IMG/VR virus record: IMGVR_UViG_3300025291_000012
Coordinates: 1 to 36,365 of that record
Length of the DNA: 36,365 nt
Direction: 5' to 3' (one strand)
Source: a virus
In this document: in pieces, positions 19,838-23,173 of the stretch
How positions within the stretch are numbered: the first letter of the stretch is position 1
How the letters are laid out: every line of letters begins with the position of its first letter
Program-made: the position numbers and the translations under genes
Notes under the pieces: generated by a model
The model's database searches: none
Seen by the model: the letters and a program-made list of their open reading frames with translations, nothing else
Told to the model about the DNA's origin: nothing

Positions 19838-19862
19838 AAAGTGTCCCCAGGTGGGACACTTT
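19838..19862. repeat. Module-boundary palindrome, copy A
   Basis: aaagtgtccc, spacer caggt, then gggacacttt. It overlaps the repA stop codon. Confidence 0.9.
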
Positions 19863-20872
19863 CAGCTCCAGTCTTTGATTTTTTTCGGGACGCTGGTCAA
19901 TGACGGTTCCATGAAAAGCCCGCTCGGCTTGGGAGTGACCTTGGCTTGTGGATACACCGTCACCACCTTTTTGAGGGCGGGCAGGAAATTCTCTCGGAAT
20001 TTCTTCACGGTCTTGTACTCGCTGCCGAACTGGTGAAAGACGGCATCCCACGGCACCGTGGTTGGTTTGCTTAGGGAGAAATAGCGGTATGTCATCCAGC
20101 TGTAGAGGTCTAGCGCCATGGGAGAGGATCTCAAGGCTCGCAGGGCGCGCAAATCGACCGGCACCGGGTTCGCCTTCGTTTCTTCAAAAAAACGCTCGCC
20201 TAGGACTATGCTGGACTGCCACAGGCCCGCTTGGCCGGGATTGTTGGTCGACCACCAAAGATCAGCGTCTTTGACAACATCCAGCTTTCGCATCCGCAGA
20301 TTTTCATCTACCGACGCGCCTCCTATCTGTGCGGAAATGTCGGCCAGAAATAACCGCATCATCTGGTCACGCAGACGGGTCCGCGCACCGTTCTTCCCAC
20401 CGCTGCGGTGTTCGCCAATGCCCAGCTCGGCCATGAAAGCAGACAGGCTGTCGCCAAGGATGATCGTGCGTTCGTTGGTGCGCACAATTTCCGCCCCAAT
20501 CCATGCGAGCATCAACCGCGGATAAGAGCCGTACGGAAACCCGACACGCTCCCACTCCCCTGCTCTGTTTTTCGCGTGACCTTGCTTGATGATCAAGCTG
20601 GTCTCGCCAACGGTTCGCTCCCAAACTTCCAGTGATCGGAGCGGCTCTCGGTACGGCAAAGTGGCTTGTACCAGCGTGCGGCCCAAGTATCCCGTTGTAC
20701 CCGCGCGAAAAGCGTCTTCGGCCTCGATAGCGCGGGCTTCTTCGACCAGGCGGCTGTCAATGCTGGGGGTGATGGCATTGCGTGACGCATAGGTACGCTT
20801 CCGCTTGGGCTTTGCGGGCGTTTCTATCGGCGATAGCGTCAATTCGAATGCGTCGGATGTCTCGTCGTCCAT
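19862..20872 (-). CDS. repA: Plasmid replication initiator RepA (RepA_C family)
   Basis: The ATG at 20872 follows aggagg. 336 aa with the motif PYGSYPRLMLAWIGAEIVRT. Iterons lie upstream. Confidence 0.8.
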   Translation of the reverse strand: MDDETSDAFELTLSPIETPAKPKRKRTYASRNAITPSIDSRLVEEARAIEAEDAFRAGTTGYLGRTLVQATLPYREPLRSLEVWERTVGETSLIIKQGHAKNRAGEWERVGFPYGSYPRLMLAWIGAEIVRTNERTIILGDSLSAFMAELGIGEHRSGGKNGARTRLRDQMMRLFLADISAQIGGASVDENLRMRKLDVVKDADLWWSTNNPGQAGLWQSSIVLGERFFEETKANPVPVDLRALRALRSSPMALDLYSWMTYRYFSLSKPTTVPWDAVFHQFGSEYKTVKKFRENFLPALKKVVTVYPQAKVTPKPSGLFMEPSLTSVPKKIKDWS

Positions 20873-20933
20873 CGCAGGAACACCCCTCCTCATCGTGTCG
20901 GTTAGCACCATAGCACGGTGTCCGCACCCCCTT

Positions 20934-20947
20934 CGCATATGTGGGGG
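20934..20947 (-). repeat. Inverted-orientation iteron in the repA leader/promoter region
   Basis: cgcatatgtggggg is the reverse complement of the iteron core. Confidence 0.8.
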
Positions 20948-21132
20948 CACTCTGTTTTGATGTTGTGTTTCTACTCGGCTGGTCGAGCGCATCGCGAAAC
21001 GTGGGCAACCGTAGGGTTGTCCACTGTAGCGATGTGCCCTACTAGCAAAGCTAAAAGTAAACCTACCCCTAAAAGCAATAACTAGCGCGGGCAATTTTTC
21101 TCGTAGAGACAATCACTTAGGCCCGAATTCCG

Positions 21133-21292
21133 CCCCCACATATGCGCGCGTAGCCCCCACATATGCGACAAATCGCCCCCACATATGCGATTTGAGCGCC
21201 CCCACATATGCGACCACGCGCCCCCACATATGCGGGGAAAAGTGCTTCTATCCACAGGCTTTATCCACAGTGGGCGCGCCCCCACATATGCG
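21133..21292 (+). repeat. Six direct iterons, core CCCCCACATATGCG
   Basis: Perfect 14-mers start at 21133, 21154, 21176, 21199, 21221 and 21279. The first five are spaced 21-23 bp apart. Confidence 0.95.
21248..21269 (+). promoter_or_regulatory. Two DnaA boxes
   Basis: ctatccaca (21248-21256, one mismatch) and ttatccaca (21261-21269, perfect match to TTATCCACA). Confidence 0.7.
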
Positions 21293-21321
21293 AAAAAGTG
21301 TCTCACCTGGGGACACTTTTT
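21293..21321. repeat. Module-boundary palindrome, copy B
   Basis: aaaaagtgtctc, spacer acctg, then gggacacttttt, with one arm mismatch. It abuts iteron 6 and overlaps the parB stop codon. Confidence 0.9.
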
Positions 21322-22243
21322 AGGTCCCCTCTTCCAGTAGCTCTCGGAGGAATTCTTGGAGCTTTGCCGCCTTCTCCTCAGGCAGAGCCTCGTTGGAAAG
21401 CTTGATCACGAATTGCGTTGAGGTGCGAGCAATTGAGCCAATGCGAGCCTCGCCGCGAGTCAGGTATGTCGTAGGCTTGCTGCTGGGCGTCTTGGCTGGC
21501 TTCTCGCTCTGCACGCCCTCTTGCTGGGTATTTGCTGATCGCGGCTGCTCCAGGAAGCTAATAAGCCCGCCCTGCTCCAGTTCGCCCATCGCGATCTTGT
21601 CCAGCGCCTCGCCCAATCGGTCGGTGAGGTCCGGATTCTGCTTGAGGGCTTGCGCCAGTTCGCTGGCGGCTCGGCGGCCAATCAAGTCAGGCTTCAGTTG
21701 TAGGCGCGCTTTCACCGAATCGGGTAGGTCGTGGAATGCGAGATAGCGATAGAGTTCTGACCGTGCCAAGTTGAGGGCTTTCGCCAGGTGGGCGCGCTTC
21801 GGATACTTAACCTCTAGTCTCCTGATGCCCGCGGCGATCTCCCAATCGGTTAGGTCTTCCCGATCAATATTCTCGGACAGGGCCATTGCAGCGGCTGTGC
21901 CCTCATCCACGTCCACTACGATGGCCTCGATGGTCGGCTTATTTAGCAGCCTATGGGCGCGCAGGCGCCGCTCGCCGCAGATAAGCTCGTAACCATTTCC
22001 AAATGGACGGACGGTGACGGGTTGAGTGAGGCCCACCTCGGCAATGGAGTCTGCCAGGGCGCGCAGCTTCTCTTCCGAGAATGTCAGCCGCGGCTGGTAG
22101 CTGCCGACTGTGATTTGCTCCAGCGGGATCTTGGTGTGTCGGCGCCCGACATCGAAGTCATCGCTGTAGTCCGCCTCGCGATGGCTCTTCTGGTTCAGTT
22201 CGGCCTGCTGTGCAAGCAGTGCTTTCAGGTTCTTGCTGCTCAC
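21320..22243 (-). CDS. parB: ParB/Spo0J-family partition protein
   Basis: 307 aa with the ParB N-terminal box ELICGERRLRA. Its GTG start overlaps the parA stop as GTGA. Confidence 0.85.
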   Translation of the reverse strand: MSSKNLKALLAQQAELNQKSHREADYSDDFDVGRRHTKIPLEQITVGSYQPRLTFSEEKLRALADSIAEVGLTQPVTVRPFGNGYELICGERRLRAHRLLNKPTIEAIVVDVDEGTAAAMALSENIDREDLTDWEIAAGIRRLEVKYPKRAHLAKALNLARSELYRYLAFHDLPDSVKARLQLKPDLIGRRAASELAQALKQNPDLTDRLGEALDKIAMGELEQGGLISFLEQPRSANTQQEGVQSEKPAKTPSSKPTTYLTRGEARIGSIARTSTQFVIKLSNEALPEEKAAKLQEFLRELLEEGT

Positions 22244-23073
22244 GCTGTTGCCTCCTCGGCCAGCGCGTCGTCGCTAACCTTGAGCTGCAGCTGCTTGGCG
22301 ATAGCTGCGGCCAGCTGACGGAATTGACGGGCCGGCTTGGAGCTGCGGTCGACGCCGTGCGCGCTGGTCTTCATGACGGCAGCTTGCTTGACGGCAGTGC
22401 CCTGGGAGATCTTCTCCGGCAGCAGCTTGCCGAAAGTCTTTTCGGCCTGGTTGGCGAGCAGCTTGCAGATTGTCTGGCGGTCGTCGTACTTGATCAGCAG
22501 GGCGCCTAGCATTTCGAGATCTGGATTGATGCGCCGGATCTGTGAGACCTTTTTCAGCAAATCCTCGGCACCGTAGAGGCCGTACTGGTCGCCGGCCTCG
22601 ATGGGCACGATGACGTGTGTGGCCGCGGCGAGAGCGTTGCTCGACAGGAGTTTGATACTTGGCGGGCAGTCGATCAGGATCACGTCATACACGGCCATGG
22701 CGGGCTGCAGCTTGTCGCGCAATTCCTCGCTAGGGCGGGTGGAGAGGTCTTTGAGATCGTCCTCGGCCTTGCCGAGAGCCAAGCTGCCGGCGATCAGGCT
22801 GACGCCTTCGATTGTGGTTTCATCCTGGACGGCGAGGGGGAGGACTGAGTTGTCGCCAGTGAGCAGCTCGGCCGTGGAGTGGGCGACCTTGGCTGGGTGG
22901 ACTTTGCCGATGTGCAACGTGGCATTCGCCTGCGGGTCCATGTCCACGACCAGGACGTTGTTCCCTTGGCGCGCGAATTCACTGGCCAGATTGACGGTAG
23001 TGGTCGTCTTGCCGCAGCCGCCCTTATGGTTGACGATTGCGATGACCTTGGCGCGCTTCGTTTGATCGTTCAT
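22240..23073 (-). CDS. parA: ParA/Soj-type partition ATPase
   Basis: ATG at 23073. 277 aa with a deviant Walker A, KVIAIVNHKGGCGKTTT. Confidence 0.9.
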   Translation of the reverse strand: MNDQTKRAKVIAIVNHKGGCGKTTTTVNLASEFARQGNNVLVVDMDPQANATLHIGKVHPAKVAHSTAELLTGDNSVLPLAVQDETTIEGVSLIAGSLALGKAEDDLKDLSTRPSEELRDKLQPAMAVYDVILIDCPPSIKLLSSNALAAATHVIVPIEAGDQYGLYGAEDLLKKVSQIRRINPDLEMLGALLIKYDDRQTICKLLANQAEKTFGKLLPEKISQGTAVKQAAVMKTSAHGVDRSSKPARQFRQLAAAIAKQLQLKVSDDALAEEATA

Positions 23074-23144
23074 GTTTTCGTGTGCGGTGTAGTTGACTCG
23101 CGTGAACGATAGGCGGTGGAAACGTGAATGACAAGCGACAAATA

Positions 23145-23173
23145 AAAAAGTGTCCCACTTGGGGACACTTTTT
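23145..23173. repeat. Module-boundary palindrome, copy C
   Basis: aaaaagtgtccc, spacer acttg, then gggacacttttt. It lies between the end of the early-left operon and the parA promoter region. Confidence 0.9.

What the first reader, a model, noticed from the sequence alone, without database searches (positions are those of the whole stretch)
19838..23173. The same 25-29 bp palindrome occurs three times, exactly at the boundaries of the rep and par modules
The consensus AAAAGTGTCCC-N5-GGGACACTTTT occurs at 19838-19862, overlapping the repA stop. It occurs again at 21293-21321, between iteron 6 and the parB stop, and at 23145-23173, between the early-left operon and the parA promoter. The arms are identical apart from one base in copy B. 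The 5-nt centre is nearly conserved (ac[c/t]tg), and copy A is inverted relative to B and C. An A-run and a T-run flank each copy, so each could act as a bidirectional intrinsic terminator. That would insulate repA, the origin and parAB from phage early transcription. Independent terminators rarely share sequence, however. Three near-identical dispersed dyads next to a ParB gene are also what dispersed centromere (parS) sites look like, as in the N15 prophage-plasmid. They could equally be recombination linkers that let the rep and par cassettes shuffle between phages.
Basis: seen in the sequence. Interest (0 to 1): 0.7.

Follow-up and report, generated by a model that had tools for sequence, protein, structure and literature searches.

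The report
Partition (parS) sites of a phage-plasmid
The three near-identical palindromes are most likely the centromere (parS) sites where this plasmid-like prophage's ParB protein binds so that copies are shared out at cell division; this is a new example of a well-known kind of system, with an unusual one-base variation in spacing among relatives.

Summary
AAAAGTGTCCC-N5-GGGACACTTTT occurs three times (19837-19863, 21294-21320, 23146-23172) and nowhere else in the 36 kb; none is expected by chance.

The window is a myovirus-type phage-plasmid with repA, iteron oriV, parA, parB and kfrA. In every ParB relative examined (about 20 replicons, 41-100% ParB identity) a short palindrome sits about 12 bp upstream of the parA -35 hexamer. 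A second copy abuts the parB stop codon. This holds whatever the Rep type and whether or not kfrA is present.

The palindrome changes with the ParB recognition helix:
- GTGTCCC arms with RSELYRYLAF
- GTCCAAA with RSDLYRYLSF
- GTAGCAA with REDMYRYFAF

A run of T after the palindrome is conserved only at the site upstream of parA. The copies are therefore best read as parS sites for a chromosomal-type, CTP-motif ParB. Copy C probably also ends the leftward early operon. The recombination-linker idea is not supported.

One twist: relatives with the same recognition helix use either a 4- or a 5-nt centre. The centre length is the same at all intact sites of a replicon but interleaved on the ParB tree.

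No binding experiment exists. This is a new member of a known kind, of moderate interest.

The parts
19837..19863 (.). parS-A: AAAAGTGTCCC-CAGGT-GGGACACTTTC. It overlaps the repA stop codon and lies about 43 nt upstream of the next minus-strand ORF.
   Evidence: A site in the same position, directly after the repA stop, is found in L142, L147 and L149/L159 but not in L143, L148 or L150.
21294..21320 (.). parS-B: AAAAGTGTCtC-ACCTG-GGGACACTTTT. It is wedged between the last oriV iteron and the parB stop codon.
   Evidence: A palindrome abutting the parB stop occurs in almost every ParB relative examined, the exception being L005, where IS elements lie downstream of parB. The C>T change at 21303 is absent from sibling contigs.
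23146..23172 (.). parS-C: AAAAGTGTCCC-ACTTG-GGGACACTTTT. It lies 12 bp upstream of the parA -35 hexamer. On the minus strand it forms a hairpin followed by UUUUUUAUUU, so it is probably also the terminator of the leftward early operon.
   Evidence: The alignment of 13 parA upstream regions shows the palindrome, T-tract, -35 TTGNCA and -10 TATCGT in fixed register.
21320..22243 (-). parB: 307 aa, with a ParB_N domain carrying the GERRLRA CTP-binding motif and an HTH with recognition helix RSELYRYLAF.
   Evidence: Pfam PF02195 at 1.6e-22. TIGR00180 at 5e-35. The best solved relatives are H. pylori Spo0J 4UMK and T. thermophilus Spo0J 1VZ0.
22240..23073 (-). parA: 277 aa Walker-type ATPase with no N-terminal HTH extension.
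   Evidence: Pfam AAA_31 at 2e-44 and CbiA. NCBIfam ParA_partition.
23106..23134 (-). Predicted sigma-70 parA promoter (-35 TTGTCA, 17-nt spacer, -10 TATCGT).
   Evidence: TTGNC of the -35 and the -10 TATCGT are invariant in 13 relatives.
21132..21292 (+). oriV: six direct 15-bp iterons GCCCCCACATATGCG and two DnaA boxes (21248-21256 and 21261-21269). It lies between parS-B and repA.
19862..20872 (-). repA (RepA_C family). One inverted iteron lies in its leader at 20934-20948.
   Evidence: Pfam PF04796 at 3e-27.
18386..19291 (+). kfrA (KfrA_N domain). This is a neighbour, not the binder of the palindromes.
   Evidence: Pfam PF11740 at 1.8e-19. KfrA is absent from most loci that carry the palindromes.

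Best explanation
The three palindromes are the parS sites of the phage-plasmid's own ParABS partition system. Their core is GTGTCCC-N5-GGGACAC, extended to AAAGTGTCCC...GGGACACTTT.

ParB dimers recognise the two GTGTCCC half-sites through their HTH. By analogy with other ParB_N/GERRxRA proteins, they then bind CTP, close into clamps and slide or spread outward.

The three sites bracket parAB (C and B) and repA plus oriV (B and A). The partition complex would therefore cover the whole 3.3-kb maintenance module. ParA-ATP on the nucleoid would then pull sister copies apart.

Site C sits immediately upstream of the parA -35 hexamer, so ParB bound there probably also autoregulates parAB, because this ParA has no HTH of its own. 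The hairpin and U6 run of site C probably also stop leftward early phage transcription from running into parA.

What is shown:
- the sequence, copy number and position of the sites;
- conservation of those positions in relatives;
- co-variation of the palindrome with the ParB recognition helix;
- the ParB and ParA domain content.

What is inferred:
- ParB binding to the sites;
- CTP-dependent loading and spreading;
- segregation of plasmid copies;
- autoregulation of parAB;
- transcription termination at site C.
For: 1. The motif is not a chance occurrence and is confined to the maintenance module: 3 copies against 0 expected, and none elsewhere in 36 kb.

2. The site architecture is conserved. 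One site lies 75-80 bp before the parA start codon and one abuts the parB stop. This holds in:
- Cupriavidus L143, L142, L137 and L144-L153;
- Ralstonia pRMAN01 (7 sites);
- Paraburkholderia plasmids;
- Chromobacterium plasmids, pM02_c6 and a TARA contig.

3. The palindrome co-varies with the ParB recognition helix. GTGTCCC arms go with RSELYRYLAF, GTCCAAA-N-TTTGGAC with RSDLYRYLSF, and GTGTAGCAA-N-TTGCTACAC with REDMYRYFAF.

4. Within the GTGTCCC group, 39 sites in 14 replicons keep the arms almost invariant, with 30/30 half-sites matching at most positions in the 5-nt-centre class. Meanwhile the centres and flanks vary and ParB falls to 55% identity.

5. The palindrome follows parAB, not the replicon type. 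It is found with RepA_C, TrfA, Rep3 and RPA replicons, with or without kfrA.

6. ParB has a ParB_N domain with GERRLRA plus an HTH, and is closest to Spo0J/ParB proteins solved with parS or CTP. ParA is a Walker ATPase without an HTH.

7. A motif-only genome scan, blind to genes, returned 120 loci. Six of them carry a ParB homologue within 8 kb, five of these with two or more copies of the motif beside or inside parB.

8. The T-run expected of a terminator is not conserved at the sites after parB and after rep.
Against: - No binding, stabilisation or incompatibility data exist for any member of this ParB clade. I found no paper that describes the motif.
- The same arms occur in many unrelated genomes with no ParB nearby, for example as multi-copy repeats in Clostridia MAGs. 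The 14-nt arms alone are therefore not diagnostic.
- All three sites sit at the 3' ends of minus-strand transcription units and can fold into hairpins followed by 4-6 U, which is what terminators look like.
- ParBs with identical recognition helices are paired with sites whose half-sites are 4 or 5 nt apart. That is unusual for a dimeric HTH protein and is not explained.
Confidence: 0.85

Rival explanations
1. The palindromes are primarily intrinsic (bidirectional) transcription terminators. They would insulate repA, oriV and parAB from one another and from phage early transcription, and share sequence only because they were duplicated.
For: Each copy lies at the 3' end of a minus-strand unit (repA, parB, the leftward operon). 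As RNA each forms, or can form, a 7-11 bp stem with a 5-nt loop, at -14.5 to -24 kcal/mol for the 51-nt windows. On the sense strand the hairpin is followed by UUUU (A), UUUUU (B) or UUUUUUAUUU (C). The T6-7 run after the site upstream of parA is conserved in all 10 phage-plasmid relatives.
Against: - In relatives, the sites after parB and after rep are followed by only 0-5 T. Examples are TTTG in L143, L142 and L148, TGTC in pRMAN01, TCGC in L147 and ATGT in L149.
- The cognate palindromes of more distant ParBs have no T-run at all.
- Copy B in the window has a C.A mismatch on the parB-sense strand, and its minimum-energy fold omits the hairpin.
- The simple terminator scan did not call any of the three.
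- The arms are sequence-invariant across 14 replicons rather than changing by compensatory pairs, and they switch together with the ParB helix.
- Only about 43 nt separate site A from the next ORF's start. That ORF is therefore probably read through from repA, which argues against efficient termination at A (inference).
Confidence: 0.07
2. The palindromes are operators for a different DNA-binding protein of the maintenance module (KfrA, RepA or a KorA-like global regulator), not for ParB.
For: kfrA lies 550 bp from copy A. Among the three closest phage-plasmids first compared, copy A is present where kfrA is intact (window, L142) and absent where kfrA is fragmented (Cupriavidus L143). KfrA proteins are known to bind inverted repeats and to interact with KorB/IncC segrosome proteins (PMC7783346, abstract).
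Against: - The palindromes flank parAB in loci where tblastn found no kfrA, such as pRMAN01, L137, L152 and the Chromobacterium plasmids. L146, L150 and L151 likewise have no KfrA_N gene called in the locus.
- L148 has kfrA but no site after repA.
- No copy lies in the kfrA promoter region.
- RepA's own sites are the unrelated 15-bp iterons, and the palindrome occurs with four different Rep families.
- ParB is the only DNA-binding protein present at every locus that has the palindromes.
Confidence: 0.04
3. The palindromes are recombination linkers, that is, cassette boundaries that let rep and par modules shuffle between phages.
For: The parAB genes with their flanking sites travel with different Rep types (RepA_C, TrfA, Rep3, RPA) in otherwise related elements. 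Copy A lies 24 bp from a homology break between the window and the Cupriavidus element.
Against: - Copies B and C lie inside one continuous homology block (19887-23316) shared with the Cupriavidus phage-plasmid, and the two genomes are syntenic nearly end to end.
- No recombinase is associated with the sites in the window.
- A self-contained parABS cassette naturally carries its own centromeres at its ends, so no linker function is needed to explain the co-travel.
Confidence: 0.03

Closest known systems
Chromosomal ParB/Spo0J-parS systems (16-bp parS TGTTNCACGTGAAACA)
   Same: ParB has a ParB_N domain with GERRxRA plus an HTH. Its best solved relatives are H. pylori Spo0J 4UMK (E 1.8e-24) and T. 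thermophilus Spo0J 1VZ0. ParA is small and lacks an HTH. The sites are short palindromes present in a few copies near parAB and the origin. Both half-sites share the TGT...CA frame (TGTCCCA against TGTTTCA).
   Different: The site is 18 or 19 bp (GTGTCCC-N4/5-GGGACAC), not the universal 16-mer. No canonical parS occurs in the window at up to 3 mismatches. The system sits on a phage-plasmid, and its sites abut stop codons and a promoter.
Bsr ParABS families of Burkholderiales secondary chromosomes and plasmids (Dubarry 2006; Passot 2012; Pillet 2017, PMC5450999)
   Same: Both are found in Burkholderiales hosts. Both use replicon-specific short palindromes repeated around parAB, with cognate ParB specificity thought to avoid incompatibility. 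An asymmetric natural parS (12J) is known in the Bsr families.
   Different: Bsr parS sites are 16-bp palindromes with a T-rich 5' end and a central CG. Here there is no central CG, the length is 18/19 bp, and the centre length varies. Whether this ParB clade falls within a named Bsr family was not tested.
KorB-OB of IncP-1 plasmid RK2
   Same: KorB is a ParB-family CTPase whose palindromic sites double as operators, and some lie just upstream of a -35 hexamer. Its partner is a small ParA (IncC), and kfrA is a neighbour. There is a weak sequence match to KorB structure 8QA8 (E 8.6e-8).
   Different: OB is the 13-bp sequence TTTAGCSGCTAAA, present 12 times around the plasmid, and it works with KorA (from general knowledge). 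Here there are three sites, all within the maintenance module, and no KorA-like partner was identified.
N15 prophage-plasmid sop system with dispersed centromere sites
   Same: Both are prophages maintained as plasmids, with several single palindromic centromere sites rather than one tandem array.
   Different: N15 uses SopA/SopB (type Ia, with a large ParA carrying an HTH), and its sites are scattered among phage genes. Here the ParB is Spo0J-like and the sites are clustered within 3.3 kb.
Intrinsic bidirectional terminators
   Same: The sites combine an A-run, a GC-containing hairpin and a T-run, and lie at the 3' ends of genes.
   Different: The stem sequence is conserved as sequence and tracks a protein's recognition helix. 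The T-run is conserved only at the site upstream of parA.

Membership tests
ParABS partition system centromere (parS) | An adjacent parA gene encoding a Walker-type ATPase | tested here: met
   Gene at 22240-23073 (-), AAA_31 at 2e-44 and CbiA at 3e-20.
ParABS partition system centromere (parS) | An adjacent parB with a ParB_N CTP-binding motif and an HTH DNA-binding domain | tested here: met
   Gene at 21320-22243 (-), PF02195 at 1.6e-22 and TIGR00180 at 5e-35. GERRLRA is present, and the protein aligns to Spo0J structures through the HTH.
ParABS partition system centromere (parS) | A short inverted repeat in one or more copies close to parAB, at a position conserved in relatives | tested here: met
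   About 20 replicons have a site upstream of parA and a site at the parB stop.
ParABS partition system centromere (parS) | The site sequence co-varies with the cognate ParB DNA-binding helix | tested here: met
   Three palindrome classes match three recognition-helix classes.
ParABS partition system centromere (parS) | ParB binds the site specifically, and the site confers stabilisation and incompatibility | not testable with these tools
   This needs EMSA, ChIP-seq and plasmid stability assays. No published data were found.
Canonical chromosomal parS | The 16-bp sequence TGTTNCACGTGAAACA | tested here: not met
   No match in the window at up to 3 mismatches.
Bsr parS (Burkholderiales secondary replicons) | A 16-bp palindrome with a T-rich 5' end and a central CG dinucleotide | tested here: not met
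   The sites are 18/19 bp with centres ACYTG or A-NN-T and no central CG. The definition is taken from PMC5450999.
Intrinsic terminator | A stable GC-containing hairpin directly followed by a U-run on the transcribed strand | tested here: inconclusive
   Copy C is a good candidate (13-bp stem including A-U pairs, then U6AU3). Copy A is marginal (U4). Copy B has U5, but a C.A mismatch prevents the hairpin in the minimum-energy fold. None was called by the consensus scan.
Intrinsic terminator | The hairpin plus U-run is conserved at the same gene ends in relatives, with structure kept rather than sequence | tested here: not met
   The U-run is conserved only upstream of parA in phage-plasmids. 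It ranges from 0 to 5 T at the sites after parB and after rep, and is absent in distant relatives. The arms are invariant as sequence.
Intrinsic terminator | Transcript 3' ends map to the site | not testable with these tools
   This needs Term-seq or 3' RACE.

The most novel reading that the evidence does not exclude
The spacing between parS half-sites (a 4- or a 5-nt centre, differing by one G in a G-run) may be a fast-evolving specificity character. It has switched several times in this phage-plasmid and plasmid clade. Each time it is the same in every intact site of a replicon, and it may have changed together with ParB residue 175, five residues after the recognition helix (D/G in the 5-nt class, A/E/P/Q in the 4-nt class). 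On this reading, closely related elements escape partition incompatibility by changing centromere geometry rather than base identity. That mode of ParB-parS diversification has not, to my knowledge, been described.
Probability: 0.15. Interest if true: 0.65.

Novelty: new member of a known kind. Interest (0 to 1): 0.4.

Why it matters
The result assigns a function to the only repeated non-iteron element in the maintenance module of a Burkholderiales phage-plasmid family. It defines a previously unannotated parS consensus, AAAGTGTCCC-N4/5-GGGACACTTT, for a ParB clade found on Cupriavidus and Ralstonia phage-plasmids and plasmids. That consensus is useful for annotation, for predicting incompatibility and for building stable vectors in these hosts.

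The 4/5-nt centre polymorphism occurs among ParBs with the same recognition helix. It offers a small natural experiment on how tolerant a ParB dimer is to half-site spacing, and on how new partition specificities arise.

Tried and rejected
- **Megablast of the module against GenBank phages:** no match. ParB tblastn against phages gave only distant partial hits.
- **ParB-seeded scan of viral contigs:** only 35%-identical partial hits. The motif-seeded and ParA-seeded scans were more productive.
- **Genome-wide motif scan (AAGTGTCCC-N4-5-GGGACACTT):** None had the ACYTG centre, so it could not enumerate the true family.
- **Literature search for the half-site strings:** swamped by primer sequences. 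Passot 2012 and Dubarry 2006 are not held.
- **Rfam:** nothing at the three sites. There was one sub-threshold c4-a1b1 hit inside parA.
- **Readings considered and rejected:**
  - RepA, KfrA or CI as the binder. RepA uses different sites, KfrA is absent from most loci with the palindromes, and there are no copies near the immunity region.
  - Recombination linkers, because of the synteny.
  - Sequencing error as the cause of the extra G. The centre length is the same at all intact sites of each of 14 replicons, which come from independent assemblies.
- **ParB column scan for residues that track spacing:** only two columns split the classes. With 14 related sequences this is a lead, not evidence.

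
Full report
**1. The observation**

The consensus AAAAGTGTCCC-N5-GGGACACTTTT matches three places in the window and no others: 19837-19863 (A), 21294-21320 (B) and 23146-23172 (C). 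No match occurred in 100 dinucleotide-preserving shuffles. The repeat finder groups the three as one family.

The arms are identical except for a C>T at 21303 in copy B. The centres are CAGGT, ACCTG and ACTTG, so A is inverted relative to B and C. Sibling contigs that are 98% identical, with ParB 100% identical, have perfect arms at copy B, so the mismatch is private to this sequence. A relaxed search with a 4- or 5-nt centre and up to 2 mismatches finds no fourth copy.

**2. Context**

All the relevant genes except kfrA lie on the minus strand:

| Gene or feature | Coordinates | Basis |
|---|---|---|
| repA (RepA_C) | 19862-20872 | |
| parB (ParB_N + HTH) | 21320-22243 | |
| parA (Walker ATPase, 277 aa, no N-terminal HTH) | 22240-23073 | |
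| kfrA (plus strand) | 18386-19291 | |
| six 15-bp iterons GCCCCCACATATGCG | 21132-21292 | |
| two DnaA boxes | 21248-21269 | |
| inverted iteron in the repA leader | 20934-20948 | |

The rest of the window encodes major head protein, tail sheath, tape measure, baseplate, large terminase, portal and a CI-like repressor. It is syntenic, at 66-84% nucleotide identity, with the 37.9-kb Cupriavidus oxalaticus X32 "plasmid unnamed3". That record is annotated with terminase, portal, capsid, sheath, an S24-peptidase repressor and CII. The element is therefore a myovirus-type phage-plasmid.

Positions of the three sites:
- Site A overlaps the repA stop codon.
- Site B is wedged between the last iteron and the parB stop codon.
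- Site C lies 12 bp upstream of the -35 hexamer of a sigma-70-like parA promoter (TTGTCA, 17 nt, TATCGT). It also lies at the end of the leftward early operon.

**3. Comparative evidence**

I collected ParB relatives from four sources:
- the plasmid collection;
- viral contigs, by motif and by ParA;
- metagenomes, by ParA;
- the protein database together with its encoding contigs.

In every locus with enough flanking DNA, a short palindrome lies 75-80 bp upstream of the parA start codon. In almost every one a second copy abuts or overlaps the parB stop codon. The one exception is L005, which has IS elements downstream of parB and only the upstream copy.

An alignment of 13 parA upstream regions shows the palindrome, a short tract, the -35 (TTGNCA) and the -10 (TATCGT) in fixed register.

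The palindrome differs between ParB lineages and changes with the recognition helix:

| Palindrome | Recognition helix | Found in |
|---|---|---|
| GTGTCCC arms | (L/I)(A/S/V)RSELYRYLAF | window and 13 other replicons, ParB 55-100% identical |
| GTCCAAA-N-TTTGGAC | QRSDLYRYLSF | Paraburkholderia and Mycetohabitans plasmids |
| GTGTAGCAA-N-TTGCTACAC | NREDMYRYFAF | Chromobacterium plasmids, pM02_c6, a TARA contig |

The palindrome accompanies parAB whatever the replication gene (RepA_C, TrfA, Rep3 or RPA). It is also found whether or not kfrA is present.

Across 39 sites in 14 replicons of the GTGTCCC group the arms are nearly invariant, while the centres and flanks drift.

A third site directly after the repA stop, the equivalent of copy A, recurs in L142, L147 and L149/L159. 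It is missing from L143, L148 and L150.

**4. The protein**

ParB carries the GERRLRA CTP-binding motif. Its closest solved relatives are Spo0J/ParB proteins: 4UMK at 1.8e-24, 1VZ0, and the ParB structures 7BNK and 6T1F. KorB (8QA8) is a distant match. NCBIfam places it in the ParB/RepB/Spo0J partition family.

**5. Interpretation**

The simplest account of all this is that the palindromes are the cognate parS sites of this ParB. Three sites bracket parAB and repA plus oriV. ParB loaded at them would therefore cover the whole maintenance module. Site C beside the parA -35 hexamer gives an obvious route to autoregulation, since this ParA has no DNA-binding extension. ParB binding, CTP-dependent spreading, segregation and repression are all inferred from family knowledge. 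None is shown here.

**6. The terminator reading**

As RNA the sites fold, or can fold, into hairpins. On the sense (minus) strand:
- C is followed by UUUUUUAUUU;
- A is followed by UUUU;
- B is followed by UUUUU, but B has a C.A mismatch and its minimum-energy fold omits the hairpin.

The consensus terminator scan called none of them.

In relatives, the T6-7 run is conserved only at the site upstream of parA, and only in phage-plasmids, where a co-oriented early operon ends there. After parB and after rep the run ranges from 0 to 5 T. The cognate palindromes of distant ParBs have no T-run.

My conclusion is that site C probably also acts as the terminator of the leftward operon, or that its T-tract serves as an UP element for the parA promoter. 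Termination is not the conserved function of the repeat family. In addition, only about 43 nt separate site A from the next ORF's likely start at 19793. That ORF is therefore probably read through from repA (inference).

**7. Other rivals**

- **RepA** binds the unrelated iterons.
- **KfrA** is absent from most loci that carry the palindromes, and no copy lies in the kfrA promoter.
- **Recombination linkers** are not supported. B and C lie inside one homology block shared with the Cupriavidus element, and the two genomes are collinear. Only A is near a break.

**8. The motif in unrelated contexts**

Most hits are unrelated:
- multi-copy GCAAGTGTCCCTCCGAGGGACACTTGC repeats in Clostridia MAGs;
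- singletons in many phyla;
- none with the ACYTG centre.

The 14 arm bases alone are therefore not diagnostic, and this weakens any argument based on the motif by itself.

Even so, 6 of the 120 loci carry a ParB homologue within 8 kb. Five of these have two or more copies of the motif beside or inside parB (L024, L054, L120, L091, L100). That is far more than a gene present roughly once per genome would give by chance.

**9. An unexpected detail**

Within the GTGTCCC group, the two arms are separated by either 4 nt (18-bp site, GTGTCCCA-NN-TGGGACAC) or 5 nt (19-bp site, centre ACYTG). The 5-nt form equals the 4-nt form plus one G in the G-run.

The centre length is the same at every intact site of a given replicon. 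This holds for 7 replicons of each class. The one exception is a degenerate site in L147.

The two classes are nevertheless interleaved on a ParB neighbour-joining tree. For example, L137 (4 nt) is 89-90% identical in ParB to L001 and L142 (5 nt). The recognition helices are identical across the classes.

Only two ParB alignment columns separate the classes. One of them is residue 175, five residues after the recognition helix. With 14 related sequences this is only a lead. Possible explanations are that ParB tolerates both geometries, that the sites are homogenised, or that spacing is a specificity character. These cannot be told apart here.

**10. Comparison with what is known**

The system works like chromosomal and Burkholderiales Bsr-type ParABS: a small ParA, a Spo0J-like ParB, and a few short palindromes around parAB. 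However, it fails two site definitions. It lacks the canonical 16-mer, and it does not meet the Bsr definition of a 16-bp palindrome with a central CG (PMC5450999).

It resembles KorB-OB of RK2 in having a site placed just upstream of a promoter, with kfrA next door. It resembles N15 in being a prophage-plasmid with several single-palindrome centromeres. The RK2 and N15 comparisons rest on general knowledge.

I found no paper describing this motif. Two key papers were not available.

**11. Verdict**

- The parS reading has a confidence of about 0.85.
- The terminator role is probably real for copy C only.
- The linker idea is not supported.
- This is a new member of a known kind, of moderate interest. 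The interest is raised somewhat by the centre-length polymorphism.

Noticed in passing
L091 6593-6659 (Sulfuritalea MAG JALHPU010000063.1); also L100 2254-2320: Two GTGTCCC-TAGTA-GGGACAC palindromes lie in frame inside a parB gene. Each encodes KSVP(S/T)RDT, and together they form a 21-aa insertion in the ParB N-terminal domain just before GERRLRA. This looks like parS-like sites embedded in the coding sequence of their own ParB.
   Followed up: partly
L017-L136, e.g. L062 1021-7578, L059, L051, L076, L094: Clostridia and Ruminococcus MAGs carry many copies (up to 7 per 8 kb) of a longer palindrome, GCAAGTGTCCC-TCCGA-GGGACACTTGC, or of one with an ACCGT centre. Some copies lie directly upstream of ParA-like genes (L061, L090). 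The nature of these repeats is unknown.
   Followed up: partly
ParB residue 175 (window about 21719-21721, minus strand) and residue 235: These are the only two ParB alignment columns that perfectly separate replicons with 5-nt centres (D/G at residue 175) from those with 4-nt centres (A/E/P/Q). Residue 175 lies five residues after the recognition helix. The sample is small (14 sequences).
   Followed up: partly
window 21303: The single arm mismatch in copy B (C>T) is absent from sibling contigs L154 and L155 (98% nt identity, identical ParB). It is a private variant of this sequence.
   Followed up: yes
window 21132-21292, 20934-20948, 21248-21269: The oriV anatomy comprises six direct 15-bp iterons GCCCCCACATATGCG, one inverted iteron in the repA leader (likely RepA autoregulation) and two DnaA boxes (CTATCCACA and TTATCCACA) between iterons 5 and 6.
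   Followed up: partly
window 16675-17796 (-): An Acyl_transf_3 acyltransferase gene lies in a segment (16689-18355) with no counterpart in the Cupriavidus relative. It may be a moron or lysogenic-conversion gene.
   Followed up: no
window 22274-22338 (+): There is a sub-threshold Rfam match to c4-a1b1, the target of the P1/P7 C4 antisense RNA (23.7 bits against a gathering score of 46.7, E 0.01). It lies inside the 3' end of parA, antisense to it, and is probably chance.
   Followed up: no
L143 (= L001) 821-1297: In the Cupriavidus oxalaticus phage-plasmid, kfrA is broken into three frame-shifted fragments and the parS copy after repA is missing. In the window and in L142 both are intact. L148, however, has kfrA without that site.
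   Followed up: partly
L150 1-1130: A related phage-plasmid contig encodes a 677-aa protein with ParB_N and H-NS (Histone_HNS) Pfam hits, in the early operon upstream of parA.
   Followed up: no
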